Assembly (NCBI GenBank): GCA_009780275.1
Contig: WRAI01000005.1
Span: forward strand, 5,241-69,240
DNA from: Oscillospiraceae bacterium
GTDB taxonomy: Bacteria; Bacillota; Clostridia; Oscillospirales; UBA929
Length of the DNA stretch: 64,000 nt
Reading direction: 5' to 3'
Positions 11,867-52,565 of this stretch are shown piece by piece; positions within the stretch are counted from its first letter, which is position 1; the number at the start of each line of letters is the position of its first letter. The notes under the pieces were generated by a model. The model was not told the DNA's origin. It made no database searches and was given only the letters and a program-made list of their open reading frames with translations. The position numbers and the translations under genes are program-made.

Positions 11867-11987
11867 GTTTTTGTAGGGCGCGGTGAGGGCACTGCGCCGC
11901 TTAATTGGTACAACCACTATACTGCGGACGTGATGAAGGCATCGCGAACGCTTGAACGCCGCCCCTACAAAGTTGGAGGATATACCT

Positions 11988-14516
11988 ATGAATGTCTTGC
12001 TGCCTATTGCCACAGTTATCTTCGCCGTGTGGTTTGTCGCACGGTATGTTTGTAAGCTCCGGAAACGTGATGACAATACTGTAGAGAACGCACCCCCGTG
12101 CATCTCGCAGCAAGGCAGCTGTCCTGAAAAACAGGGTGTTGAACAGGCCCCCCGCCAATCCATTTTTACACGTTCGCGCGGCAAGATGACCCCTTTAGAT
12201 ATACTGCCTCTTGTTGTCATCACACTTGTTTACGCTTGCGTGGCGTTTTTCAACCTCGGCGACAGGCAAGCGCCGCAGTCGGGCTGGATGGCGCGAGAAG
12301 AGACGTCCGCCTCTGTTACCATTGACTTGGGCGAAGAGGTTGAACTATACCGCATTGTCTATTTCGGCGGCGTCCTGCAAGCCAATCCGCTGGGAAGCGG
12401 GCTTTTTCTGCGCGCCGAGCACTGGGAAGTAAGCGAGGAAGATGACAGTGCTTTTATACCGGTGGTAACGGAGCGGAAAGAGTTTCGAACGGCCTCCGAC
12501 GCCGCGTTTGTCTGGCGTGAGTTTCAGTTTAACAGCCAAGGCGACGATCGTACACGCTATCTTCATTTGACTGCGTTGCGAACATTTCAAGTCAACGAAT
12601 TAGGCATTTACGTGCGTGATGCTGACGGCGAAATTACGCGGCTTGACCCTGCTAATTTCGACTTTTTCGACGACGAAAATGCAAAGGCTCTTTTTGACGA
12701 GCAACTTTTGATCCCCGGGCAAATTGCCGCTCAAGGCAATGGGCAAGAACCGCAAACGGGCTGGCCGGCGCGAGAAGAGCCGCCCAGTCAAACTGTCATG
12801 TTTAGCTTAGGTGAAGAGGTTGAGCTATACCGCATTGTACATTTCAACGGTGTCAAGCACGGCAATATTTGGCAGGATCCTAACCTTCCGCCGTGCTGCG
12901 TCATTCGTTTTCAAACGCGCCTTAGCGCCGACGAGCCTTGGGTGGAGCGCGAAACGCTGCGGGCGGGATTTAACGACGTCTTTTATTGGCGGGATCTGCA
13001 GCTTGGCGGCGGCGAACATAACCGTGCGCGTTATATCCGTTTGATCTCGGTTCGCACGTTCCAAGTCAACGAAATGGGCATTTACGTGCGTGATGCTGAC
13101 GGCGAAGTGACGCGGCTTGACCCTGCTAATTTCGACTTTTTCGGCGACGAAAATGCCGCGCGATTGTTTGACGAACAGCATTTAATCCCCGAACACTTCA
13201 CATTTACCAATCAAATGTACTTCGATGAGATTTACCACGGACGCACGGCGTACGAAGTCATTCATGGCATTTATCCTTATGAGACAACGCATCCGCCGCT
13301 GGGCAAAGCCATTATCAGTTTGGGCATTCGCATGTTTGGTATGACGCCGTTTGGCTGGCGGTTTATGGGCGTGGTTTTTGGCATTATGATGTTGCCGTTT
13401 TTCTACTGGCTGCTCAAAGGGCTGTTCAACAAAACGCTTGTTGCGGCGGCCGGCACAACGCTGCTTGCCACCGAATTTATGCTCATCACACAATCGCGCA
13501 TTGCCACCATTGACACGTATACTGTGTTTTTCATTATCGTATCGTACTTGTTCATGTTCCGCTATATCACTTCGGGGTTGGATGCGCCGTTGAAAAAGAC
13601 GCTGCTGCCGCTGTTCTTATCGGGGTTGGCGTTTGGGTTGGGCGTGGCGAGCAAATGGCCGGTGTTGTACGCGGGATTGGGCCTGCTTGCCTTTTATGTG
13701 ATGTATCAAGTCGCGCGAATTCGCCATGCGAAGAAACAGGGCGTTGATTGGGTTGTTTTCTTGTCTCGTACACTTTCAGCGTCGATCATTTTCTTTATTT
13801 TCGTGCCGGTAACGGTGTATGTTGTGTCCTATGCACCATATGTACAAAACAACCATGAACGCATTGTGTCTATGCGTATTCCCGAGGACGACCACTATTT
13901 GGTATGGCAGCCCAGCGGCGAATGCATGCCATTGACGGCAAATAACTTGTGGGATAAAGCGTGGAGCAACTCCATTGACATGTTAAGCTATCACGGCGGC
14001 AACCCGGGCGATTCGGCACATCCCTTTGCGGCGGCCTGGTATCACTGGCTGGTCAATGCCCGCCCCATGCTCTTTTATGCCGACTGGGGGTGGTGCAGCG
14101 ATAACGGGCAGTGGGTATTTCTCGCAGGATTTGCCAGCTTTAACAATCCGCTGATTTCGTGGGCGGGCTTGTTGGCGTTGTTTGCTGTCGCATGGGCATT
14201 TTTTCGCAAGCGGCATTGTTTAGCCACCGTATTTATTGTTGTCGGATTTTTATCGCAGTTTGCGCCGTGGCTGCTCATCTCTCGGGAAACGTATGCCTAT
14301 CACTACTTCCCGTCGATTATTTTCTTGATACTGGCGTTGGCATATATTTTTAACGATTTGCTCGATATGGATATTAAGCAAAACCGCCGGTGGGTGGTAG
14401 GCTTTGCCGGCGCATCGGTAGTGTTGTTTGCGCTGTTCCTACCGGTGCTGATTGGCATCCCCATTCCAAGTTGGTATCTTAGCGGACTACAATGGTTGCC
14501 GAATTGGCCCTTCTAA
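11988..14516 (+). CDS. GT-C glycosyltransferase (family 39 / PMT-like) with an N-terminal anchor and a duplicated extracytoplasmic beta-sandwich module
   Basis: ATG 11988 follows GGAGGA. One transmembrane segment, two ~160-aa repeats, then a polytopic core (YFDEIYHGRTAYE...HPPLGK...). The C-terminal third is PMT-like. Confidence 0.75.
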   Translation: MNVLLPIATVIFAVWFVARYVCKLRKRDDNTVENAPPCISQQGSCPEKQGVEQAPRQSIFTRSRGKMTPLDILPLVVITLVYACVAFFNLGDRQAPQSGWMAREETSASVTIDLGEEVELYRIVYFGGVLQANPLGSGLFLRAEHWEVSEEDDSAFIPVVTERKEFRTASDAAFVWREFQFNSQGDDRTRYLHLTALRTFQVNELGIYVRDADGEITRLDPANFDFFDDENAKALFDEQLLIPGQIAAQGNGQEPQTGWPAREEPPSQTVMFSLGEEVELYRIVHFNGVKHGNIWQDPNLPPCCVIRFQTRLSADEPWVERETLRAGFNDVFYWRDLQLGGGEHNRARYIRLISVRTFQVNEMGIYVRDADGEVTRLDPANFDFFGDENAARLFDEQHLIPEHFTFTNQMYFDEIYHGRTAYEVIHGIYPYETTHPPLGKAIISLGIRMFGMTPFGWRFMGVVFGIMMLPFFYWLLKGLFNKTLVAAAGTTLLATEFMLITQSRIATIDTYTVFFIIVSYLFMFRYITSGLDAPLKKTLLPLFLSGLAFGLGVASKWPVLYAGLGLLAFYVMYQVARIRHAKKQGVDWVVFLSRTLSASIIFFIFVPVTVYVVSYAPYVQNNHERIVSMRIPEDDHYLVWQPSGECMPLTANNLWDKAWSNSIDMLSYHGGNPGDSAHPFAAAWYHWLVNARPMLFYADWGWCSDNGQWVFLAGFASFNNPLISWAGLLALFAVAWAFFRKRHCLATVFIVVGFLSQFAPWLLISRETYAYHYFPSIIFLILALAYIFNDLLDMDIKQNRRWVVGFAGASVVLFALFLPVLIGIPIPSWYLSGLQWLPNWPF
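12266..13190 (+). repeat. Intragenic tandem duplication (two ~474-480-nt units) inside the GT39-like gene
   Basis: The units start near 12266 and 12745. 12588-12680 and 13062-13154 differ at only 6 of 93 nt. A second conserved block reads GAAGAGGTTGA(A/G)CTATACCGCATTGT at 12333 and 12813. Confidence 0.9.
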
Positions 14517-15990: not shown

Positions 15991-16114
15991 AGTAGCCCTC
16001 ACTTTGCTCCGTTAAATGATAAATAAGAATGCAGAAATAATAAATTGCGGATTACAAAATTTTGTCCGCAGGAAATATTTCTGCATTTTTATTTCTTATT
16101 TGTTATTTAATAAA

Positions 16115-18022
16115 TTACCCGTTCATCGGACACGCGCTGACAATCCGTTCCCAAATGTTGCAGTGCGTGTTTATGTCAGCACCTTCGGGAATGGGACCGT
16201 TAAAGCCTAAGCGTTCGACTTCGAGTTCTTCAAGCCGCTCAATGTCGCCGTCCAAATAGCCGTTAATGCGCCGCTGTGCCGCAAGTAAGCGTGTACGCAC
16301 CCCGCCTAAGCGGATATGAATGACTTCCAAGCCTTGCGGCTTATTTTCGCGTGCCCAGAAAGTTTCAAAGCTTAAAATCAGCTCGTCCACCATACCGCAA
16401 AGTCCCGGCAATACATTGTTTGCCAGTGTCCTTAATTTTTCACGCTCGCCGTTGCGATAGGCTTCGGTGATGGCAATGCCTACCGTGCTTTTTACCATAA
16501 GCAGGTCGCTCAATGTCGCCATATGATTGAACAGATAGCCCCATTCGCCGTTGCGCTTGGCCGCGGCGTGCAGTTTGTCCGTCAAGGTTTCGTAGTGCGC
16601 GGGGAATGTCGCAATATCAACGTGTTTGTCAAACAAGCCGAGCAATACATCCTGGTACAGCAATGGCTTGGACGTATTTGTCGTACCGTCACGCCGCGCC
16701 GTTGTGTTGTTAACATCGTCGAGCAAGAAGAAATCTTCCCACACGCCGCCTGTGCAGACGGCGAACCGCGCCGCTAGTTCCGCATCGGTAAAAATTGTAC
16801 AGTCGAGAATATCAACTGCGTCAAGTGACTTGGGTTGCGTGTATTTGAAGTCTATATAACCGCATTCGGCTTGCAATTGCAACGCCGGCAGTACGCTAAA
16901 CGCCGGGCATTCTGCGCCGTTGTCGCCCCAGCCTGTGGCAAATACAATGTCTACGCCGGTTGCACGGCAAGCCGCAAGGCTAGATCGCGATGTGTGCATA
17001 TTAAAGCGCAAATCAGGCGCCAATCCGCCCCATTTCCATGCGCCGCCGGCGAACCCGATGGGGTTCGGAAACTTTTTATGTTGTTTGAGCATACCCTCGT
17101 AATGTGCTTGGCTGAGGTGATAATAATCCCAGTACACCAATGTAACTTCGGGCGGCAACAATTCCAAAATTTCTTTCGGGAACGGCACATCGCTGCCGTG
17201 GTAGTAGTCGCCGCCGACAAGGCGGAAGAACATATCACTCCACATCATGGGTTTGAATCCGTACTTTTTACAGATTTCGACAACTTTTGTCAAGTGGCGA
17301 CACATGATTTCGGTGCGATTTTGATAGCCGTGTTTGTCGAGATATTTGCCCAGCCCCAACATATGCGCTTCGTCCATGCCGATGTTAATGTTGCGGCTGG
17401 TGAAACAGCTTGCCAGCTGTTTCATCATATCGTCGATAAATTTATACGTTTTCTCTTCGCCGACAAGTAAAATGTCGTTGCAGTCGATGATATCATGAAA
17501 TTGCACCCAACGCAACGCCGCGTTAAGATGCGCCAGCGTTTGCACGCAGGGAATCAGCTCAATGCCCAACTTGGCGGCGTAGGTGTCGATTTCTTTGAGT
17601 TCGTCGGCTGTGTAGCGTCCGCGCTGGTAGCCAAAATATTCCCATTCCGGGATTTCAAATGTGTCTTCGGTGTAGAGCTGCAACGTGTTCAGCCCCATCA
17701 AAGACATGGATTGCAGTAGTCTTTTAACCGCCGGAACGGTTGCCACGGCATTGCGCGAACAGTCGAGCATATACCCGTTTTGCGAGAACGCCGATTGCTG
17801 CGCAACGTCAAAATTACCTTGCAGTACATAGCTTACAGCACGGAAAAAATCAATTTCGCGCTCGTATGTGATAGAATTTTGCGTAACGGCAAAACCCTTG
17901 CCGCCTTGCGTGACAGTGATAGCCGTGCCGTCGGGCGACAAGGCAAATTTGCCGGCCTCGGCAAGCAGTTGCAAGCCGCTGATAATCGGCTGTGTATCGC
18001 CTGTGAAATTAAATGTTTGCAT
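16115..18022 (-). CDS. Glycoside hydrolase family 20 beta-N-acetylhexosaminidase; no signal peptide
   Basis: 635 aa. Contains GYMLDCSRNAV...LNTLQLYTEDTFEIPEWEYFGYQRGRYT..ELKEIDTYAAKLGIELIPCVQTLAHL. AAAGGAG RBS. Confidence 0.8.
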   Translation of the reverse strand: MQTFNFTGDTQPIISGLQLLAEAGKFALSPDGTAITVTQGGKGFAVTQNSITYEREIDFFRAVSYVLQGNFDVAQQSAFSQNGYMLDCSRNAVATVPAVKRLLQSMSLMGLNTLQLYTEDTFEIPEWEYFGYQRGRYTADELKEIDTYAAKLGIELIPCVQTLAHLNAALRWVQFHDIIDCNDILLVGEEKTYKFIDDMMKQLASCFTSRNINIGMDEAHMLGLGKYLDKHGYQNRTEIMCRHLTKVVEICKKYGFKPMMWSDMFFRLVGGDYYHGSDVPFPKEILELLPPEVTLVYWDYYHLSQAHYEGMLKQHKKFPNPIGFAGGAWKWGGLAPDLRFNMHTSRSSLAACRATGVDIVFATGWGDNGAECPAFSVLPALQLQAECGYIDFKYTQPKSLDAVDILDCTIFTDAELAARFAVCTGGVWEDFFLLDDVNNTTARRDGTTNTSKPLLYQDVLLGLFDKHVDIATFPAHYETLTDKLHAAAKRNGEWGYLFNHMATLSDLLMVKSTVGIAITEAYRNGEREKLRTLANNVLPGLCGMVDELILSFETFWARENKPQGLEVIHIRLGGVRTRLLAAQRRINGYLDGDIERLEELEVERLGFNGPIPEGADINTHCNIWERIVSACPMNG

Positions 18023-18049: not shown

Positions 18050-18129
18050 AAATTAGAAGTTAGTAGCGAGAAGTGAGAAGTGACTATCTCGCGCCGTGCG
18101 CAAAACTACCAACTCCTCACTTCTAATTT
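18050..18129 (-). promoter_or_regulatory. Structured intergenic RNA element: purine 5' arm, pyrimidine 3' arm, 27 nt upstream of the GH20 start
   Basis: On the minus-strand RNA, AAATTAGAAGT pairs perfectly with ACTTCTAATTT (11 bp). The helix extends imperfectly inward (8 of the next 10 positions, including G-U). The apical region carries a GCGC-ACG-GCGC hairpin. Confidence 0.5.
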
Positions 18130-18152
18130 ATAACTGTAATGCACAAAGTGCG

Positions 18153-19706
18153 TTACACCAACTCCACCCAATGCACAATGCCACCGTTGGAGTTGCCCAG
18201 AATAATGTACTCAACTGTCAGCTGCTCAACACTGTTCGGCGCAACGGTAACTTCCGCCGCCAATGCGCGCTCGTGGTGATGCTCCCAGTACGGGCGGCCG
18301 TCAACAATCGGCCAGTAATTGCCGTCACGTTCGACATAACGCGGGTCGTTGGCCTTGCTTTCGTCTTTGTCGATAATCGCGTGGCAGTTTAACTTCGCGC
18401 TCAACGGGTTGCCGTCACGGTCGCGGATTACCACGTTCAATGCACCGGCAATCGCGCCTTTTTTGTAAATCTTAAACGTGCGCGGCTTTGTGCCGGTGTT
18501 TGCCAGCGTAAAGTTGTCTTGGTACGGAATCATCCAGTTGCCAAAGTTGCCGGGACGTCCTGCACCGTCGGCGCAATCGTTGGTCAAGAACACTTCTTTG
18601 CCGTCCTCGGTGATGCAACGGAAACTCGACATATCTGTGCCGACAGCCCTGCGGTTGTTTTGCGAGTTCAGCGCGTTTTCCCACTCGTCGCCTTCAACGA
18701 GATTTTCTTGGCTGTTGTAGACGGCATAAGGCTCGCGCTTGGCAAGTTCGCCGGTGTCTTCAAAGTTTTTAACCGTCGGGTCAAAGCTGTTTTTGTACCA
18801 AACAGGCAGCTTGCCTGCGGGTGTCAAGTCGTTGACCGTCCAGCCCGCGTCGGTTTCAATCAGACCCATTGCGTCGTCGATACCTTTGTATTGCGCCGAG
18901 AAGTTGACGTTTTCTTCAATGCCCTTGTGCGGGTTGTATTGAAAACGCTCAACAACGTAGCCTTGTTCGGGGCCGTTTTCGTCGCAATATTTCGCGTCGG
19001 TGTAGAAGTACAGCGAGCCGGTAATATCTTCGCCTTGTTCTATGTCAAACAGTACAACGCCGTTCATGCAGCGGCCGTTAGGCACAATGCGGTCGGCGGT
19101 GTCGCCAATGTTGTGGCGCGAGAAATTGTCGGCAACCGTGCCGCCCATAATCCAAATGTATTTGCCGCTAGGCACGGTGATGGTCATTGGCTCAAACTTT
19201 TTCGGCACGTGAGGCAGGAAGTCTTGTCCTACATAGTACCAGTTCTCTTCGCCTTGCTTGTTATAGTAGTCGGCGGGCAGGGTGTGTTCCACGTTATAAA
19301 AATCCGCCCATTCGCGCGCACCGAGCCACTCGCCGCAGTATTGGTAGCCGATGTTGTAAATCGTAACCACCATGTCCTTTGCGCCGTTGTTGACCAGGCG
19401 GTAACCGGCATAAATGTCCATTTCCGACCAGTTGGAGTGTTCCCAGGTAAAAAAGTAGCGACCTTTCATGTTGCGCGTACGCATATTGCAGACGCCGGGG
19501 CTTTTTTCCGACGCAATGTCTTGCCAACGTAACATTTCGGGGTTATTGGCATAAATGTACCGTCCGTCGGTGTTTTTAATGCACTTAATTTCGCAAGGTA
19601 CACAGGGGTCACTGTCAGGTGTAGCGGCCGGCACTTGCGGTTTTGGTGTACCCATCAAGCGGGTCTTGTAGGGCAAATAATCGCGTAACGGTTTGGCGTT
19701 TGTCAT
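18153..19706 (-). CDS. Hypothetical protein, 517 aa, no family recognised
   Basis: Long uninterrupted ORF with an AAGGAGTG RBS. No signal peptide. Aromatic/Asn/Gly-rich. Same strand as the GH20 gene and immediately upstream of it. Confidence 0.7.
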   Translation of the reverse strand: MTNAKPLRDYLPYKTRLMGTPKPQVPAATPDSDPCVPCEIKCIKNTDGRYIYANNPEMLRWQDIASEKSPGVCNMRTRNMKGRYFFTWEHSNWSEMDIYAGYRLVNNGAKDMVVTIYNIGYQYCGEWLGAREWADFYNVEHTLPADYYNKQGEENWYYVGQDFLPHVPKKFEPMTITVPSGKYIWIMGGTVADNFSRHNIGDTADRIVPNGRCMNGVVLFDIEQGEDITGSLYFYTDAKYCDENGPEQGYVVERFQYNPHKGIEENVNFSAQYKGIDDAMGLIETDAGWTVNDLTPAGKLPVWYKNSFDPTVKNFEDTGELAKREPYAVYNSQENLVEGDEWENALNSQNNRRAVGTDMSSFRCITEDGKEVFLTNDCADGAGRPGNFGNWMIPYQDNFTLANTGTKPRTFKIYKKGAIAGALNVVIRDRDGNPLSAKLNCHAIIDKDESKANDPRYVERDGNYWPIVDGRPYWEHHHERALAAEVTVAPNSVEQLTVEYIILGNSNGGIVHWVELV

Positions 19707-19761
19707 GGGATTTCACTCCTTATATGTAGGTTTGTGGCTAGTGTACTGTATTTACACAGGA

Positions 19762-19790
19762 TTGTCAACAGTTGGATTGTGTGGTATGAT
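19762..19790 (+). promoter_or_regulatory. Extended -10 SigA-type promoter of the kinase islet
   Basis: TTGTCA (19762-19767), 17-nt spacer, TGGTATGAT (19782-19790). Confidence 0.55.
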
Positions 19791-19854
19791 GTAGGAAATT
19801 TATATTAGGTGCGTTGCCGACATCTGATAAATTTAGAGTAAGGAGAGGTTGAAA

Positions 19855-20805
19855 GTGGAAAATAAAGGTCATATAAATGATGCGCCATATATGCAGCGAT
19901 TAAGCGATTTTATTTCACAAGAATACAATCTTATCGCAAAGTCAATCACGCCTGCGGCTCGTGGTTACTATGGCGAAACATGGCGGCTTGATACAACTGA
20001 TAAGAGCTATTTTGCCAAAGTAGATTATTTTATGCGCCACCAAATAATCTTTCAAAATAGTTTGTCCGTTATAGAATATCTTTGCGATAACGGCATTGGT
20101 TTTATCCCTAAAATTATCAAAACGAAATCTAACATGCTATATTCCGAGTTTGACTCGGCAACTGTGGGCTTGTTTGAATGGATTGATGGAACAAACATCG
20201 AAACAGATGAAACAAAAGTCGCAGAATACCAAATGTTATGCGAGATATATCCATTAACTAAACAAGGTTTTGGCATTCCGACTATGACATTTTCAAATAG
20301 CGTGGTTGTTCAAGTTTATGAAAAGTGGGAATCCCTCAAAGATACACATCAAAACAATGTTATTCTATCAACTCTTGAAAAATACAGGGAAAATTTATCG
20401 CATTGTGCGTCACGCTTGGCTCACTTTTCATCAGTTTGTCGCATGAATACAGACCATTTTTATTTTACGCACGGAGATGCAGGAGGGAACTTCTTTGTAG
20501 GCAACGACCGAAATTATTTCGTTGATTGGGACGAGGTTATTTATGCGCCGATAGAACGCGATGCGTGGGTAATGTGTTGCCATGATTGGGCGCGAGCGTT
20601 ATTTAATGATACGCTCAATAAAAATAACATTCCTTATCAGTTACGCATGGAACGACTTGCCTATTATTGCTACTATATGCTTTTTTGGTATCTTGGCGAA
20701 TTTTTAGCAGATATTGAAAAACCGGATATAGCAAAAATAATAGACGAATATCTCGATGAAACTTGTTGGATTTGGGATAGAGTGCGATTTGCTGATAAAG
20801 TGTAA
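19855..20805 (+). CDS. Phosphotransferase enzyme family protein (APH/choline-kinase fold)
   Basis: Catalytic loop FTHGDAGGNFFV followed by VDWDEV. AGGAGAGG RBS. The start is GTG 19855 or TTG 19849. Confidence 0.75.
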   Translation: MENKGHINDAPYMQRLSDFISQEYNLIAKSITPAARGYYGETWRLDTTDKSYFAKVDYFMRHQIIFQNSLSVIEYLCDNGIGFIPKIIKTKSNMLYSEFDSATVGLFEWIDGTNIETDETKVAEYQMLCEIYPLTKQGFGIPTMTFSNSVVVQVYEKWESLKDTHQNNVILSTLEKYRENLSHCASRLAHFSSVCRMNTDHFYFTHGDAGGNFFVGNDRNYFVDWDEVIYAPIERDAWVMCCHDWARALFNDTLNKNNIPYQLRMERLAYYCYYMLFWYLGEFLADIEKPDIAKIIDEYLDETCWIWDRVRFADKV

Positions 20806-20891
20806 ATCTATTTCACAAAATAAACAATTTTGACAACGCCGTTGGCATGTCAAAGCAATAGCAAAATTTATATTTAGTGTAGGAGGCTAGC

Positions 20892-21350
20892 ATGGCAACA
20901 TTGCATTTAATGATAGGACTGCCGTGTAGTGGAAAAACCACTTATGCTCGCAAACTTGCGAACGATATAAATGCTCTTTTGCTTACGCCTGATGTTTGGC
21001 ATATAAAACTTTTTGGTAATGATATAAGGCATGAAAATCATGATATTAATCATGATAACGTTGAAATGCTTATGTGGGATGTGGCAGAGCAAATATTAAA
21101 ACTTGGCTGTGATGTAATTCTTGATTTTGGGTGCTGGGTGCGTGTTCAACGAGATGATTTTAGAAATCGAGCGAAAAAATTAGGAGCAAACTTTAAGCTG
21201 CACTACATGGATGTTCCTTACGAGGAATTGTATCGTCGTTTGGAACAGCGAAATCGAAATCTACCCCAAGGCATATTTGAAATCCCCAAAGAGGAAATGG
21301 ATAAATATATTTCTTTTTTTCAACCGCCAACTTCTGATGAATTGCAGTAA
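20892..21350 (+). CDS. P-loop kinase (AAA_33-like ATP-binding protein)
   Basis: Walker A GLPCSGKTTYARKL. 152 aa. AGGAGG RBS. Confidence 0.7.
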   Translation: MATLHLMIGLPCSGKTTYARKLANDINALLLTPDVWHIKLFGNDIRHENHDINHDNVEMLMWDVAEQILKLGCDVILDFGCWVRVQRDDFRNRAKKLGANFKLHYMDVPYEELYRRLEQRNRNLPQGIFEIPKEEMDKYISFFQPPTSDELQ

Positions 21351-30311: not shown

Positions 30312-30476
30312 ATGAAAAAGATACTTGCCGTATTGCTCGCGTTGCTGATGGTCGGCGCAATGACGTTTGCGTTGGTTGGTTGTGGCAACGATGATGACAA
30401 CGATGACGACGGTGGCAGTCTGACTGACATTTTTGGTGTTCTGGAAGACGACGTGGCAGACATCTTTGGCAACTAA
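30312..30476 (+). CDS. Small acidic lipoprotein (54 aa); absent from the ORF track
   Basis: My translation gives MKKILAVLLALLMVGAMTFALVGCGNDDDNDDDGGSLTDIFGVLEDDVADIFGN*. GGAGAAAAA RBS. The signal peptide is paralogous to that of 29808..30170. A strong terminator follows. Confidence 0.6.
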   Translation: MKKILAVLLALLMVGAMTFALVGCGNDDDNDDDGGSLTDIFGVLEDDVADIFGN

Positions 30477-30488
30477 GTCAATTTTGAA

Positions 30489-30525
30489 ATGAAAGGGACG
30501 CAAAGTTGCGTCCCTTTCATTTTTT
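30489..30525. terminator. Rho-independent terminator (bidirectional context)
   Basis: ATGAAAGGGACGCAA-AG-TTGCGTCCCTTTCAT followed by TTTTT. Confidence 0.8.
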
Positions 30526-30580
30526 ACTTTGCCTACATGCCTCGCGGCGGCGTATTACCGGCAAAACTTCAGTGGCTCTT

Positions 30581-38124: not shown

Positions 38125-38808
38125 TTATGCTACCAACCAAAATATCCCATATAAAACCGGCTGATGCACCAAATATATAAGTAAGCCGTGCCGCCCGATA
38201 ATTGGCAAAATCGGCATATTGAAAGTGTAAAACCATTTTGGCAATTTATTTTCAACGGCCAACTTTCCCAGCCAGGTACCAAGCAAGAAAAGAAACAACC
38301 AGGGCAATAGCGGGAAATAATCAGCCCCGCGATTACCATAAAGCCCAAATGGCAGAAATAAGTTTGTCTCCTCTTCAATGGCACGCGGGAAAAAGAAGCT
38401 ACTCACAGCAAATAATGCGATATATATTGCCGGCTGTAATCGTTTTGGCAATTTGTCGAGCGTGCTTTGCAACAATCCGTACAACGTCATTGCTACGCCG
38501 AGAAAGTGCAATATACCAAAATAAATTGGCATTCCAATCCAGAATGTTGCGATGCTGACAGCGTAAGCGCAAAGTAAAACAATAACGCCGCGCCGCAAGT
38601 TGGAGCGTGAAAATCGGCTGCTCATGCCGGACAACAGAATGAATACACCAGCGAAGATAGGCTGCAAAATGCGCAGCGTTGGATTAAAAACTAATGTCGG
38701 TTCGGCAAACCCCCAGTCGACAAGATTGATGCCAAAGTGAAAGGCAACCATGAGGATAATGGCAAACCCACGCAAGGCGTCGATGAGATGAATGCGTTGT
38801 TTTATCAT
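38125..38808 (-). CDS. DUF1624 / heparan-alpha-glucosaminide N-acetyltransferase-like membrane protein
   Basis: RIHLIDALRGFAIILMVAFHF at the N-terminus. Polytopic. AAAGGAG RBS. Confidence 0.7.
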   Translation of the reverse strand: MIKQRIHLIDALRGFAIILMVAFHFGINLVDWGFAEPTLVFNPTLRILQPIFAGVFILLSGMSSRFSRSNLRRGVIVLLCAYAVSIATFWIGMPIYFGILHFLGVAMTLYGLLQSTLDKLPKRLQPAIYIALFAVSSFFFPRAIEEETNLFLPFGLYGNRGADYFPLLPWLFLFLLGTWLGKLAVENKLPKWFYTFNMPILPIIGRHGLLIYLVHQPVLYGIFWLVA

Positions 38809-50687: not shown

Positions 50688-51440
50688 TTATTTCTTAGTG
50701 ACGATCTCCTGGACCAACTCACCATATGCAATTGCGCCGCGTGACAACTTGTCGTAACCGAAGATTGGCAGCCCGTGACTGGGCGATTCTGACAAGCGTA
50801 CATTTCGCGGAATAACGGTTTTATATACTTTGCCGGGAAAGTGCCGCTTGACCTCATCGGCGACTTGCGACGACAAGTTTGTGCGGTTGTCAAACATCGT
50901 TAACACAACACCTTGCAAGGACAACGTGGGATTCAATCGTTGCTTAACCAACCGAATGGTGTGTGTCAAATTACTCAGTCCTTCCAACGCGTAATACTCG
51001 CATTGAACCGGTACAAGCACAGCGTTGCTAGCGCACAAAGCATTTAATGTCAATAGCCCAATTGATGGCGGACAGTCGATGATAATGTAGTCATATAATA
51101 AATGCAGCGGCCGTAGAGCGCGACGCAAACAAAACTCACGCTCTTCTGCGCCAATCAGTTCTAATTCTGCGCCTGCCAATGCCTTGTTTGAGGGCAACAA
51201 ATCACCCCAAGGCGTTGATACGACGGCTTTAGAAGCGTCAACTTCATTAATGAGCACGTCGTAAATATGCGGCGATGAGCCCCTATCCACGCCGAAACCG
51301 GACGTGGCGTTTGCCTGTGGATCAAAATCAACAAGCAACGTGCGCTTATTTGCACAGTATAACCCCGCTGCAATATTGATAGAGGATGTCGTCTTGCCGA
51401 CGCCGCCTTTTTGATTGACTATGGCGATGATATGAGCCAT
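50688..51440 (-). CDS. parA: Chromosome partitioning ATPase ParA/Soj
   Basis: MAHIIAIVNQKGGVGKTTSSINIAAGL is the deviant Walker A. The tracked ORF extends upstream to 51575, but that extension is only read-through of the parS sites. Confidence 0.92.
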   Translation of the reverse strand: MAHIIAIVNQKGGVGKTTSSINIAAGLYCANKRTLLVDFDPQANATSGFGVDRGSSPHIYDVLINEVDASKAVVSTPWGDLLPSNKALAGAELELIGAEEREFCLRRALRPLHLLYDYIIIDCPPSIGLLTLNALCASNAVLVPVQCEYYALEGLSNLTHTIRLVKQRLNPTLSLQGVVLTMFDNRTNLSSQVADEVKRHFPGKVYKTVIPRNVRLSESPSHGLPIFGYDKLSRGAIAYGELVQEIVTKK

Positions 51441-51518
51441 ATGTGAATGTGCCTCCGTGTGTAAAATTTCTAACTTGGCTATCATATCATGTCGCGCACA
51501 AAAAAGCAAGCATAAAAA

Positions 51519-51534
51519 TGTTTCACGTGAAACA
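51519..51534. promoter_or_regulatory. parS: parS centromere-like site (perfect 16-bp palindrome)
   Basis: TGTTTCACGTGAAACA, compared with the Firmicutes consensus TGTTNCACGTGAAACA. Confidence 0.85.
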
Positions 51535-51558
51535 TTTGCGGCGGATAGCGCCTGCCAA

Positions 51559-51574
51559 CGTTTCACGTGAAACA
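51559..51574. promoter_or_regulatory. parS: parS centromere-like site (second copy)
   Basis: CGTTTCACGTGAAACA. The 14-bp core GTTTCACGTGAAAC is identical to the first site, 40 bp away. Confidence 0.8.
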
Positions 51575-51608
51575 AGTCAATTTGACAAAGTCGTGAAAAA
51601 GCAATCCC

Positions 51609-52424
51609 CTATAATTTGCTCTCACCTTTCGGGATTCGCACGGTCATCACAAAATCAGCGTCGGTATCGTCACGGTGGATATCGGCGGCCACACCGGCAG
51701 CGCGCATCATTGACAATGCGCGGTCAATGGTATTAAAAAACAGCCGCACATCTTTAATCAGCACAAGAGGCTTTCGTTGCGTCGGTTCGGACTTCTGCTG
51801 GAAAAGGCGGTCGATATACCGTTCAGCTTGTGCCACATTCCAATCGTTTTCAATGATGGTAATAAGAACGGCCTTGCGCTGAACAACATCTTCAAGGCGC
51901 AGCAATGCCCGTGCGTGACGTTCGGTCAAGTTATGCTCACGGAGGAGTGCCACCACATCGGGCGGATGGCGCAGCAACCGTAATTTATTGGCCACCGCTG
52001 ACTGTGATTTGCCCAATCGCAGCGCGGCCTGTTCTTGCGATAGTCCATAACTTTCAATAAGAAAGGCAATGCCCTTAGCTTCCTCGAAAAAATCCAAATC
52101 GCGGCGTTGTAAATTTTCAATCAGAGCCAACAGCGGGGAATCGCTATCTTTGATGTCGACCAGCAGGCACGGCACTTTTTTTAAACCGGCCAGCCGCGCG
52201 CCGCGCAATCGCCGCTCACCGGAAACTAATTCGTAGCGATGAGAAAGCCGCCGCACGGACAGCGGTTGAATGATACCGAATTGATGGATACTATCAGCAA
52301 GCTCGCGCAGAGCCGTCATGTCAAACACACGGCGCGGTTGCGAAGGATTGGGAGCAATGTGGTCAATGGGAATAAAATGTACTTTAGGGCTGTCAAGCAA
52401 ACTTTTCTTAAAAATCGGTTGCAT
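51609..52424 (-). CDS. noc: ParB-family protein, Noc-like (second ParB paralogue upstream of parA)
   Basis: IDHIAPNPSQPRRVFDMTALRELADSIHQFGIIQPLSVR...LVSGERRLRGARLAG. AGGAGG RBS before ATG 52424. The Noc versus ParB assignment rests on position only. Confidence 0.75.
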   Translation of the reverse strand: MQPIFKKSLLDSPKVHFIPIDHIAPNPSQPRRVFDMTALRELADSIHQFGIIQPLSVRRLSHRYELVSGERRLRGARLAGLKKVPCLLVDIKDSDSPLLALIENLQRRDLDFFEEAKGIAFLIESYGLSQEQAALRLGKSQSAVANKLRLLRHPPDVVALLREHNLTERHARALLRLEDVVQRKAVLITIIENDWNVAQAERYIDRLFQQKSEPTQRKPLVLIKDVRLFFNTIDRALSMMRAAGVAADIHRDDTDADFVMTVRIPKGESKL

Positions 52425-52565
52425 ACCGTACCTCCTATGTATAGACAAGCATAGTATACTGCAAGGGTTTTCATAAACCTTGAAAATGTTGTCGAACGTT
52501 TGTGTCGATTTATAGGAAGTTTTGATGAGGTAAGCTTTACATTACCGCATCAAATTGAAGTAACA

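What the first reader, a model, noticed from the sequence alone, without database searches (positions are those of the whole stretch)
18153..19706. Unplaceable 517-aa cytoplasmic protein next to a cytoplasmic GH20 hexosaminidase
This is a clean 1.55-kb ORF with an AAGGAGTG RBS. It has no signal peptide or transmembrane segment, and I cannot assign any catalytic or binding motif. It is rich in Trp, Tyr, Asn and Gly, as beta-sandwich or beta-propeller carbohydrate-active proteins often are. A Cys-rich stretch (PCVPCEIKC) lies near the N-terminus. It sits on the same strand as the GH20 gene, 130 nt upstream of it. The spacer holds a structured element but no U-tract terminator. The segment also contains two URO-D-fold enzymes. 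It could be an undescribed glycan-processing enzyme or a partner of the hexosaminidase.
Basis: partly seen in the sequence, partly recalled or inferred. Interest (0 to 1): 0.55.

Follow-up and report, generated by a model that had tools for sequence, protein, structure and literature searches.

The report
Unknown beta-sandwich partner of GH20C hexosaminidase
This real gene encodes a protein from an undescribed family of gut Clostridia that repeatedly sits directly in front of one type of sugar-trimming enzyme (a GH20C hexosaminidase), so it probably helps break down amino-sugar-containing glycans, though its chemistry is still unknown.

Summary
The ORF is real. It lies at 18153-19706 on the minus strand and encodes 517 aa (MCL2546068.1, Oscillospiraceae MAG). 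It has no signal peptide or TM segment. It gives no hit in Pfam, NCBIfam, PHROGs, PADLOC or PDB sequences.

An AlphaFold model is confident (pLDDT 90, pTM 0.90) and all-beta, with several jelly-roll or sandwich domains. Foldseek finds no convincing structural relative.

The family is small: 31 close relatives, 273 at the 50%-representative level and 66 genome loci, almost all in Clostridia MAGs. It is homologous to short secreted proteins that give sub-threshold DUF3370 hits.

The GH20 pairing is not a coincidence. In 8 other, deeply diverged genomes, a full-length orthologue of the window's GcnA/GH20C-type hexosaminidase lies 13-544 nt downstream of a family member. These pairs sit inside a Gram-positive glycan-utilisation cassette: DUF5696, ABC permeases, FAD oxidoreductase, Lic26A-like GH26, X, GH20C and SGNH esterases. 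Three cassettes carry a signal-less copy next to lipoprotein copies.

Other branches of the family lack GH20. They sit at the holin end of ~11-kb phage-like elements instead. The closest relative (79% identity) also lacks GH20.

Verdict: a new, uncharacterised family, most likely a glycan-active partner of GH20C. Catalysis is not shown.

The parts
18153..19706 (-). CDS of the 517-aa protein 'X' (stop codon included). It is identical to MCL2546068.1 / FWE06_02580 and is cytoplasmic by sequence.
   Evidence: AF2 model pLDDT 90.3, pTM 0.90.
19714..19721 (-). Shine-Dalgarno sequence AAGGAGTG, 7 nt upstream of the ATG.
   Evidence: Read directly from the sequence.
19740..19768 (-). Sigma-70-like promoter candidate TTGACA-17 nt-TACACT (10 of 12 matches). 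It lies in the 142-nt divergent intergenic region.
   Evidence: This is a consensus match only; function is inferred.
18059..18135 (-). Long interrupted hairpin in the 130-nt X-GH20 spacer. No U-tract follows it and no promoter-like site lies behind it on the minus strand. It is probably an intercistronic stem-loop (mRNA stabiliser or partial attenuator), not a full terminator.
16115..18022 (-). GcnA/GH20C-type exo-beta-N-acetylhexosaminidase, 635 aa, no signal peptide. It is the conserved downstream partner of X.
16014..16101 (-). 26-nt-arm inverted repeat followed by a U-rich tail, directly after the GH20 stop codon. It is the likely end of the X-GH20 transcription unit.
   Evidence: -27.7 kcal/mol, z = -3.2. 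The terminator role is inferred.

Best explanation
X is the cytoplasmic representative of an undescribed family of ~500-aa all-beta (multi jelly-roll) proteins. The family occurs almost only in Clostridia and is distantly related to the DUF3370 superfamily. X most likely acts on HexNAc-containing glycans in series with the GH20C exo-beta-N-acetylhexosaminidase encoded 130 nt downstream.

Proposed mechanism. X and GH20C are transcribed together from the promoter at ~19768-19740. In related organisms, secreted lipoprotein or dockerin versions of X work outside the cell alongside Lic26A-like GH26 enzymes and SGNH esterases. They attack an acetylated, HexNAc-containing polymer. A bacterial or fungal cell-wall-type glycan is the best guess for that polymer. 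The fragments are imported by the cassette's ABC transporter. A signal-less X, like the window's copy, and the signal-less GH20C then finish the breakdown inside the cell. X would either expose or follow the terminal beta-HexNAc that GH20C removes.

What is shown: gene reality, fold class, family distribution, recurrent X->GH20C adjacency and cassette composition.

What is inferred: co-transcription, catalysis, the substrate and the order of action.
For: (1) GH20C orthologues (46-51% identity over the full length) lie 13-544 nt downstream of an X homologue, on the same strand, in L008/L019, L012, L013, L015, L025, L045, L047 and L054. These X copies are only 37-46% identical to the window protein and fall in separate clades. 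The linkage is therefore old or repeatedly selected.

(2) The cassettes contain DUF5696, 2 ABC permeases (plus an SBP in L012), an FAD_oxidored protein, 1-3 GH26-like enzymes (closest PDB match C. thermocellum Lic26A, 7e-13), X in 1-4 copies, GH20C, and 1-3 SGNH/GDSL esterases, some with dockerins.

(3) In L008, L015 and L025, a signal-less X (506-525 aa, like the window's) is followed by lipoprotein copies that carry an extra N-terminal domain. The window's own genome also encodes a lipoprotein paralogue, P0017 (the clade has 100% bootstrap support). An inside-plus-outside split is typical of enzymes and is hard to explain for a pure surface binder.

(4) Many polar residues are conserved. There are 23 invariant columns among sequences at 35-45% identity. 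N54-x-P56-E57, N106, Y273-x-G275, N387, N390-W391, N403 and R409 persist in the remote homologues, and D358 and D380 persist in about two thirds of them.

(5) In the window, a strong RBS and a promoter-like site precede X. No promoter-like site and no U-tract terminator lies in the 130-nt spacer. A hairpin with a U-rich tail follows GH20.

(6) X and GH20 have the GC and GC3 content typical of the host genome.
Against: No catalytic fold or motif is recognised. Foldseek finds only weak matches: E >= 1e-4 and TM-score normalised to the query <= 0.22. These matches are to binding-type jelly rolls, namely HA70 D3, the SIDT1 ectodomain, ColH CBD/PPC, the CPE C-domain and Cry domain III.

E57 is the only carboxylate conserved across the whole superfamily.

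The closest relative (79% identity) has no GH20 neighbour. Most loci lack GH20. They show a c1-X pair instead, in several loci at the end of a phage-like element.

The window contains no transporter, GH26 or esterase. X-GH20 stands alone among housekeeping genes near oriC.

Co-transcription is not tested. dbCAN/CAZy and AFDB could not be searched.
Confidence: 0.5

Rival explanations
1. X is a non-catalytic glycan-binding or scaffolding protein, a lectin- or CBM-like stack of jelly rolls. It would present or hold substrate for neighbouring enzymes, and the cytoplasmic copies would be binders or regulators of GH20C.
For: All structural similarities, weak as they are, are to binding modules: HA70 D3, ColH collagen-binding/PPC domain, CPE C-domain, Cry domain III and CUB. 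Many relatives are surface lipoproteins or dockerin proteins, or are fused to Laminin_G_3, NPCBM, Flg_new or Cu_amine_oxidN1. The conserved residues are rich in Asn, Trp and Tyr.
Against: Signal-less copies sit next to secreted copies in the same cassette, and a cytoplasmic copy sits beside a cytoplasmic GH20C. A surface binder has no obvious role there. Conservation (23 invariant columns, many of them polar) is much higher than is usual for CBMs. The protein is large (~500 aa) and conserved over its full length down to remote homologues.
Confidence: 0.2
2. X is a bacterial cell-wall-active enzyme: a new lysin-like or receptor-destroying hydrolase or amidase acting on peptidoglycan or a HexNAc-rich secondary cell-wall polymer. 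In phage-like elements it would serve release or superinfection control. In the window, the cytoplasmic copy plus GH20C would recycle or scavenge cell-wall fragments.
For: Family members lie right after the holin, the 107-aa protein and the c1 protein at the end of ~11-kb terminase-portal-capsid elements in L027, L079, L080 and L005. L028, L022 and L073 show the same structural genes, c1 and X without a detected holin, and L029 and L030 are remnants that keep holin-c24-(c1)-X. No canonical endolysin domain was detected in these elements. The cassette partners fit peptidoglycan-like substrates: an exo-GlcNAc-ase (GH20C) and SGNH esterases that could act as O-acetyl esterases. Weak Foldseek hits include the double-jelly-roll amidase PNGase and PHM.
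Against: X gives no PHROG hit. It has no homologue in 50,697 deposited phages or in IMG/VR. Several phage-element copies carry lipoprotein signals, which is unusual for endolysins. The 570-aa virion protein gives a weak amidase PHROG hit and could be the lysin instead. The conserved Cys213 is lost in remote homologues. PNGase and PHM similarity is at noise level (probability 0.1-0.35).
Confidence: 0.15
3. The GH20 adjacency in this window is incidental, and X has a function unrelated to glycans, for example a toxin-like or structural beta-sandwich protein or a spore- or envelope-associated protein.
For: Weak fold hits include toxins (Cry, CPE, HA70). One lineage places c1-X beside sporulation genes (SipL, DpaA/B), and the window has a CotS-like kinase gene divergently adjacent. 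The closest relative lacks GH20.
Against: The X->GH20C order recurs in 8 further genomes across at least three diverged clades, within clear glycan cassettes. The CotS-like kinase lies in a low-GC island (0.37 against 0.52) and is probably a recent insertion. The sporulation neighbours are confined to one set of closely related genomes.
Confidence: 0.1

Closest known systems
Pfam DUF3370 (PF11850), uncharacterised
   Same: Short secreted homologues of X match the X profile over the full length (hhalign probability 100%, E 8e-60). Of 50 such homologues, 23 give collinear sub-threshold DUF3370 hits (best 4.5e-5), and no other family recurs. The motifs NNPE, YKG and N..GNW are shared across the set.
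   Different: X and its 30 close relatives give no DUF3370 hit at all. All hits by remote members are below the 25-bit gathering score. X is ~100-150 aa longer because of three insertions. DUF3370 has no known function, and no paper mentions it in the searched library.
Streptococcal GH20C/GcnA loci (S. pneumoniae SP_2141 in the N-glycan carbohydrate-processing locus; PMC5215778)
   Same: The same type of cytoplasmic exo-beta-hexosaminidase works at the end of a glycan-import pathway, together with locus-encoded partner enzymes.
   Different: The pneumococcal locus pairs GH20C with GH38, GH125, GH92, GH29 and a ROK kinase. It has no X-like protein, and the Clostridia cassettes have none of those mannosidases or the fucosidase.
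Gram-positive polysaccharide utilisation loci (ABC transporter + GHs + esterases)
   Same: The relatives' cassettes have this architecture: DUF5696, permeases, GH26-like, GH20C and SGNH esterases, with an SBP and an AraC regulator in L012.
   Different: X is a component with no assigned CAZy-type family. The window retains only the X-GH20C pair, near oriC, without a transporter or other GHs.
PPC / ColH collagen-binding domain / CPE C-terminal domain / Cry domain III jelly rolls
   Same: A ~130-residue C-terminal jelly roll of X aligns to these with Foldseek probability 0.9-0.98. Secreted homologues also carry an extra N-terminal domain. From its sequence pattern and my own recollection, not from a tool, I judged that domain to be PPC-like.
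   Different: E-values are only 1e-3 to 1e-2, TM-score normalised to the target is 0.3-0.4, and rmsd is 6-9 A. The match covers about a quarter of X and says nothing about the rest.
PNGase F / PHM double jelly-roll enzymes
   Same: X also has tandem jelly-roll domains, and its conserved residues are spread over both. These enzymes appear among the whole-model Foldseek hits.
   Different: Probability is 0.1-0.35 and TM-score is <= 0.17. No shared catalytic residues or Cu ligands were identified. I treat this as a lead, not a relationship.

Membership tests
DUF3370 (PF11850) | Pfam HMM score at or above the 25-bit gathering threshold. | tested here: not met
   X gives no hit, even at E <= 0.01. 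Remote homologues reach at most ~17 bits in the per-protein tables (best E 4.5e-5 among 50 members), in 23 of 50. This suggests a superfamily link but does not establish membership.
Any curated protein family (Pfam-A, NCBIfam, PHROGs, PADLOC) | A significant profile match. | tested here: not met
   Zero families in each library.
Known CAZy family (GH/PL/CE/CBM) | Sequence or fold match to a characterised member, with catalytic residues in place. | tested here: inconclusive
   There is no PDB sequence or profile hit. Foldseek against PDB gives only weak, non-specific beta-sandwich matches. dbCAN/CAZy HMMs and AFDB were not available.
Component of a glycan-utilisation locus with GH20C | Conserved, same-strand adjacency to GH20C and other glycan enzymes or transporters across diverged genomes. 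| tested here: met
   8 further genomes show X->GH20C with gaps of 13-544 nt, inside cassettes with GH26-like enzymes, SGNH esterases, ABC permeases and DUF5696. In the window itself only the X-GH20C pair is present.
X-GH20C operon in this window | Co-transcription, meaning no terminator or promoter between the two genes. | tested here: inconclusive
   The spacer has no promoter-like site on the minus strand and no U-tract terminator, but it does contain a strong hairpin. RNA evidence is not available.
Phage endolysins | A recognised muralytic domain (amidase_2/3, GH25, CHAP, M23, NlpC/P60) or a PHROG lysis family; presence in phage genomes. | tested here: not met
   No Pfam or PHROG lysis hit. 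No homologue in INPHARED phages or IMG/VR. Only the position after the holin in ~11-kb elements points this way.
PNGase F-like / PHM-like double jelly roll | A significant structural superposition over both domains, plus catalytic residues. | tested here: not met
   Foldseek probability 0.1-0.35, TM-score <= 0.17, rmsd > 20 A.
Secreted or membrane protein | A signal peptide, lipobox or TM helix. | tested here: not met
   The ORF cannot be extended upstream. The N-terminus is hydrophilic and the maximum KD19 is 0.83. Many homologues do have lipoprotein signals.

The most novel reading that the evidence does not exclude
X founds a new family of carbohydrate-active enzymes with a multi-jelly-roll fold unlike any solved CAZyme. 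It would be a hydrolase or amidase acting on HexNAc-rich bacterial cell-wall glycans. Clostridia would use it in three settings: outside the cell in a 'cell-wall utilisation' cassette with Lic26A-like GH26, SGNH esterases and GH20C; inside the cell to finish imported fragments, as in this window; and in compact ~11-kb phage- or GTA-like elements as a release or receptor-destroying factor placed after the holin.
Probability: 0.2. Interest if true: 0.7.

Novelty: new variant of a known kind. Interest (0 to 1): 0.45.

Why it matters
Gut and rumen Oscillospiraceae and Acutalibacteraceae are abundant, mostly uncultured, and poorly annotated for glycan metabolism.

This work points to a conserved component of a recurrent glycan-utilisation cassette that no family library recognises. 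If it is catalytic, it would define a new CAZy-type family and a new fold for glycan cleavage. It would also help identify the unknown substrate, which is HexNAc-containing and acetylated and possibly microbial cell wall.

The finding gives clear, cheap experiments: recombinant X with and without GH20C, tested on defined substrates.

The family's second home, at the holin end of very small phage-like elements, hints at a link between cell-wall glycan turnover and particle release. That link is worth testing.

If X turns out to be a non-catalytic binder, the finding is of modest, specialist interest.

Tried and rejected
**Searches of X that gave nothing**
- Pfam, NCBIfam, PHROGs and PADLOC scans: no hit.
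- PDB sequence search with the single protein and with the family profile: only noise or nothing.
- Foldseek of the full model against PDB and BFVD, and of the C-terminal part (residues 205-517) against PDB: only weak generic beta-sandwich hits.
- Rfam on 14-24 kb, including the spacer hairpin: none. The hairpin sequence is not repeated in the window.
- Phage GenBank collection (tblastn) and IMG/VR: no homologue.
- Literature on DUF3370: none.
- A second homologue search seeded with remote member P0099, meant to bridge to DUF3370: only 4 hits, none annotated.

**Ideas considered and dropped**
- The Cys-rich stretch PCVPCEIKC as a metal or redox site. It is not conserved.
- Cys213 as a catalytic nucleophile. 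It is conserved in close relatives but replaced, mostly by Ser, in remote ones.
- His90 as a metal ligand. It is variable.
- The window clade as sister to the GH20-linked L012 clade. Bootstrap support is only 10%.
- The URO-D genes as part of the unit. They have no synteny elsewhere.
- The CotS-like and AAA_33 kinases as partners. They lie in a low-GC island.
- An N-glycan pathway like that of S. pneumoniae. The cassettes lack mannosidases and fucosidase.

**Method note**
My first crude ORF caller picked long antisense ORFs inside family genes (cluster c2). I corrected this by selecting ORFs with the family HMM.
Full report
**1. The observation**

It cannot be extended upstream.

AAGGAGTG sits at 19714-19721 (minus), 7 nt before the ATG. 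A TTGACA-17-TACACT promoter-like site lies at 19768-19740.

The protein has no hydrophobic segment (maximum KD19 = 0.83). Trp, Tyr and Asn are enriched 2.5x, 2.0x and 2.0x; Gly is only 1.2x.

The downstream same-strand gene (16115..18022) is a GcnA/GH20C-type exo-beta-N-acetylhexosaminidase. Pfam gives Glyco_hydro_20 plus Glyco_H_20C_C. The best PDB matches are 2epk at 3e-136 and 5a69 at 7e-128. It also has no signal peptide.

The 130-nt spacer holds a strong interrupted hairpin at about 18059-18135. The 146-nt segment folds at -47.7 kcal/mol, z = -4.8. No U-tract follows it, and it has no Rfam match and no second copy in the window. No promoter-like site lies on the minus strand within the spacer.

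A second hairpin with a U-rich tail follows the GH20 stop at 16014-16101. X-GH20 is therefore plausibly one transcription unit. This is an inference.

The two URO-D-like genes exist but have no counterpart near family members elsewhere.

**2. What the protein is**

X matches nothing in Pfam, NCBIfam, PHROGs, PADLOC or PDB sequences, whether searched as a single sequence or as a family profile. It is identical to MCL2546068.1, a 'hypothetical protein' of an Oscillospiraceae MAG.

Family size:
- The word-indexed search of 5.8 billion proteins finds only 31 relatives. None carries a Pfam domain except a dockerin in four.
- An exhaustive profile search of 1.84 billion representatives finds 273 at E <= 1e-3, of which 54 are at <= 1e-30.
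- A scan of 185,579 species genomes finds 66 loci. All are in Bacillota MAGs, almost all titled Clostridia, Oscillospiraceae, Acutalibacteraceae or Ruminococcus, and most come from animal guts.

AlphaFold2 with the 31-sequence alignment gives a confident model: pLDDT 90.3, pTM 0.90. It is all-beta. One sandwich domain ends at about residue 250, and further sandwich domains follow to the C-terminus.

Foldseek against PDB finds nothing convincing. The best E-value is 1e-4 and the TM-score normalised to the query is at most 0.14. The hits are HA70 D3, the SIDT1 ectodomain, PHM, a PNGase and EngBF. BFVD gives generic tail-fibre and minor-tail sandwiches.

A separate model of residues 205-517 matches only through a ~130-residue jelly roll of the ColH-CBD/PPC, CPE-C or Cry-domain-III type. 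Probability reaches 0.98, but E is only 1e-3 to 1e-2 and TM-score normalised to the target is 0.3-0.4.

Conservation is high for such divergence. There are 23 invariant columns at a mean of 37% identity.

Short secreted proteins of 370-420 aa are full-length homologues (hhalign probability 100%, E 8e-60). Of 50 of them, 23 give collinear, sub-threshold hits to Pfam DUF3370, and no other family recurs. X therefore belongs to a superfamily that touches DUF3370. DUF3370 is itself uncharacterised, and no paper mentions it in the searched library.

These residues persist across the whole superfamily: N54-x-P56-E57, N106, Y273-x-G275, N387, N390-W391, N403 and R409. D358 and D380 persist in about two thirds of the remote homologues.

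**3. Context, the main evidence for function**

I ran tblastn with the window's neighbours against all fetched loci. Only GH20 recurs. Full-length orthologues (46-51% identity) lie just downstream of the X homologue in L008/L019, L012, L013, L015, L025, L045, L047 and L054. The gaps are 13-544 nt on the same strand.

These loci form a recurrent cassette:
- a DUF5696 protein;
- two ABC permeases, plus an SBP and an AraC regulator in L012;
- a surface-anchored 330-350-aa protein;
- a PF12831 FAD-dependent oxidoreductase;
- 1-3 GH26-like lipoproteins, closest solved relative C. thermocellum Lic26A at 7e-13;
- X in 1-4 tandem copies;
- GH20C;
- 1-3 SGNH/GDSL esterases, some with dockerins.

Of the nine GH26-linked loci with enough downstream sequence, eight have GH20C. 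L043 does not.

The GH20-linked X copies fall into several deep clades. The window clade comprises WIN, its 79% relative L001, and its own genome's lipoprotein paralogue P0017/L009. It has 100% bootstrap support. It is not reliably sister to any one GH20-linked clade (10% support). The linkage is therefore ancient or repeatedly selected.

In L008, L015 and L025, the first X copy has no signal peptide (506-525 aa, like the window's). The following copies are lipoproteins with an extra N-terminal domain. I judged that domain to be PPC-like from its sequence pattern and my own knowledge, not from a tool. The window's organism shows the same inside/outside pair, but unlinked.

Not everything fits. 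L001, the closest relative, has X behind a GFO_IDH_MocA oxidoreductase, a GNAT acetyltransferase and an AP_endonuc_2 protein, with no GH20.

About 23 loci instead have a small N-terminally anchored protein (c1, 150-190 aa) directly upstream of X.

In L027, L079, L080 and L005, this pair follows a holin and a 107-aa protein at the end of a compact ~11-kb element. The element order is small terminase-like gene (a small gene ahead of the large terminase, labelled by position only), large terminase, portal, capsid, two small genes, a 570-aa virion protein and a ~350-aa protein. L028, L022 and L073 carry the same structural genes, c1 and X, but no holin was detected there. L029 and L030 are remnants that keep only holin-c24-(c1)-X. 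No integrase or replication genes are visible in the stretches read. No canonical endolysin domain was detected either.

X has no homologue in deposited phage genomes or in IMG/VR.

**4. How it most likely works**

I commit, at about 0.5, to the following. X is a glycan-active protein, probably an enzyme, that works in series with GH20C on a HexNAc-containing and probably acetylated glycan. The window's copy is the intracellular form and acts on imported or recycled fragments.

Shown:
- recurrent adjacency and cassette composition;
- the inside/outside paralogue pattern;
- strong conservation of polar residues;
- host-like base composition (GC 0.53 and 0.51 against about 0.52 for neighbouring genes).

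Inferred: catalysis, substrate, order of action and co-transcription.

The substrate is unknown. The partner set is a Lic26A-like beta-glycanase, an exo-HexNAc-ase active on GlcNAc and GalNAc, and O-acyl esterases. Combined with the phage-end context, this makes a microbial cell-wall-type glycan my best guess. It is only a guess.

Rivals:
- a non-catalytic lectin-like binder (0.2), favoured by the fold hits and disfavoured by the cytoplasmic copies;
- specifically a lysin-like or receptor-destroying cell-wall enzyme (0.15), which is a sharper version of the main model;
- an unrelated function with incidental adjacency (0.1).

**5. Comparison with what is known, and novelty**

X fails every family membership test available here. 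It is at most a distant relative of the uncharacterised DUF3370.

By architecture, it behaves like a component of a Gram-positive polysaccharide utilisation locus. Its partner GH20C is known from the pneumococcal N-glycan locus (PMC5215778). That locus has different partners and no X.

I rate it a new variant of a known kind: an unrecognised protein family within glycan-utilisation cassettes. It is not categorically new, because the system logic is familiar and catalysis is unproven.

**6. Verdict**

This is a real, conserved protein family that no library recognises. Its link to GH20C is reproducible, and cheap experiments can test it. Interest is 0.45.

The most novel reading not excluded is this: X is a new CAZyme fold acting on bacterial cell-wall glycans, and it has also been co-opted by tiny phage- or GTA-like elements. 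I give that a probability of about 0.2, with interest of about 0.7 if true.

Noticed in passing
L027:115-11470; L028:690-11416; also L079, L080, L005: A compact ~11-kb phage-like element. Its order is small terminase-like gene, large terminase, portal, capsid, two small genes, a 570-aa virion protein, a ~350-aa protein, holin, a 107-aa protein, the c1 membrane protein, then the X homologue. L028 has no detected holin. In L027 and L028 host genes flank it directly, and no integrase or replication genes are visible. It has no counterpart in INPHARED or IMG/VR. It could be a defective prophage or a GTA-like particle locus.
   Followed up: partly
window 19849-21350 (+): A CotS/APH-like kinase (318 aa) and an AAA_33 P-loop kinase (152 aa) have GC 0.37 and GC3 0.29-0.34. 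Neighbouring genes have GC of about 0.52. This is probably a recently acquired two-gene island inserted divergently next to X.
   Followed up: partly
window 51519-51574: Two copies of TGTTTCACGTGAAACA form an inverted repeat at the 5' end of the ParA-type ATPase gene 50688-51575 (-), whose coordinates contain the repeat, just downstream of the ParB-like gene 51609-52448 (-). From my own knowledge this matches the canonical parS sequence. The window is the chromosomal origin region: dnaA 46647-47957, dnaN, recF, gyrB, gyrA and serS.
   Followed up: no
window 18519-19532 (+): A 337-aa ORF lies antisense to X. Equivalent antisense ORFs of 336-600 aa (mostly 550-600 aa) occur opposite homologues in many loci (cluster c2). 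They misled a naive longest-ORF gene caller. I treat them as a compositional artefact, not a gene.
   Followed up: partly
L045:494-2812; L054:20-955: A DUF5696 protein (772 aa, Pfam E 6e-135) heads the GH26-like/X/GH20C cassettes, ahead of the ABC permeases. It is a second uncharacterised family tied to the same unknown substrate.
   Followed up: no
L001:788-3321; L017, L018 upstream of X: A GFO_IDH_MocA oxidoreductase lies next to X in three loci that lack GH20. In L001 it is accompanied by an AP_endonuc_2 TIM-barrel protein and a GNAT acetyltransferase. The GH20-linked cassettes carry a PF12831 FAD oxidoreductase instead. This may hint at an oxidative step in the pathway.
   Followed up: no
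window 11952-14516 (+) and 38125-38808 (-): An 854-aa PMT-family (dolichyl-phosphate-mannose protein mannosyltransferase-like) membrane protein and a 227-aa HGSNAT_cat (heparan-alpha-glucosaminide N-acetyltransferase-like) protein are both present. Both are unusual glycan-related genes for a Clostridia origin region.
   Followed up: no
window 30468-30541: A 36-nt-arm inverted repeat (75% complementary, 2-nt gap) lies in a stretch with no ORF of 150 aa or more. I did not examine it.
   Followed up: no
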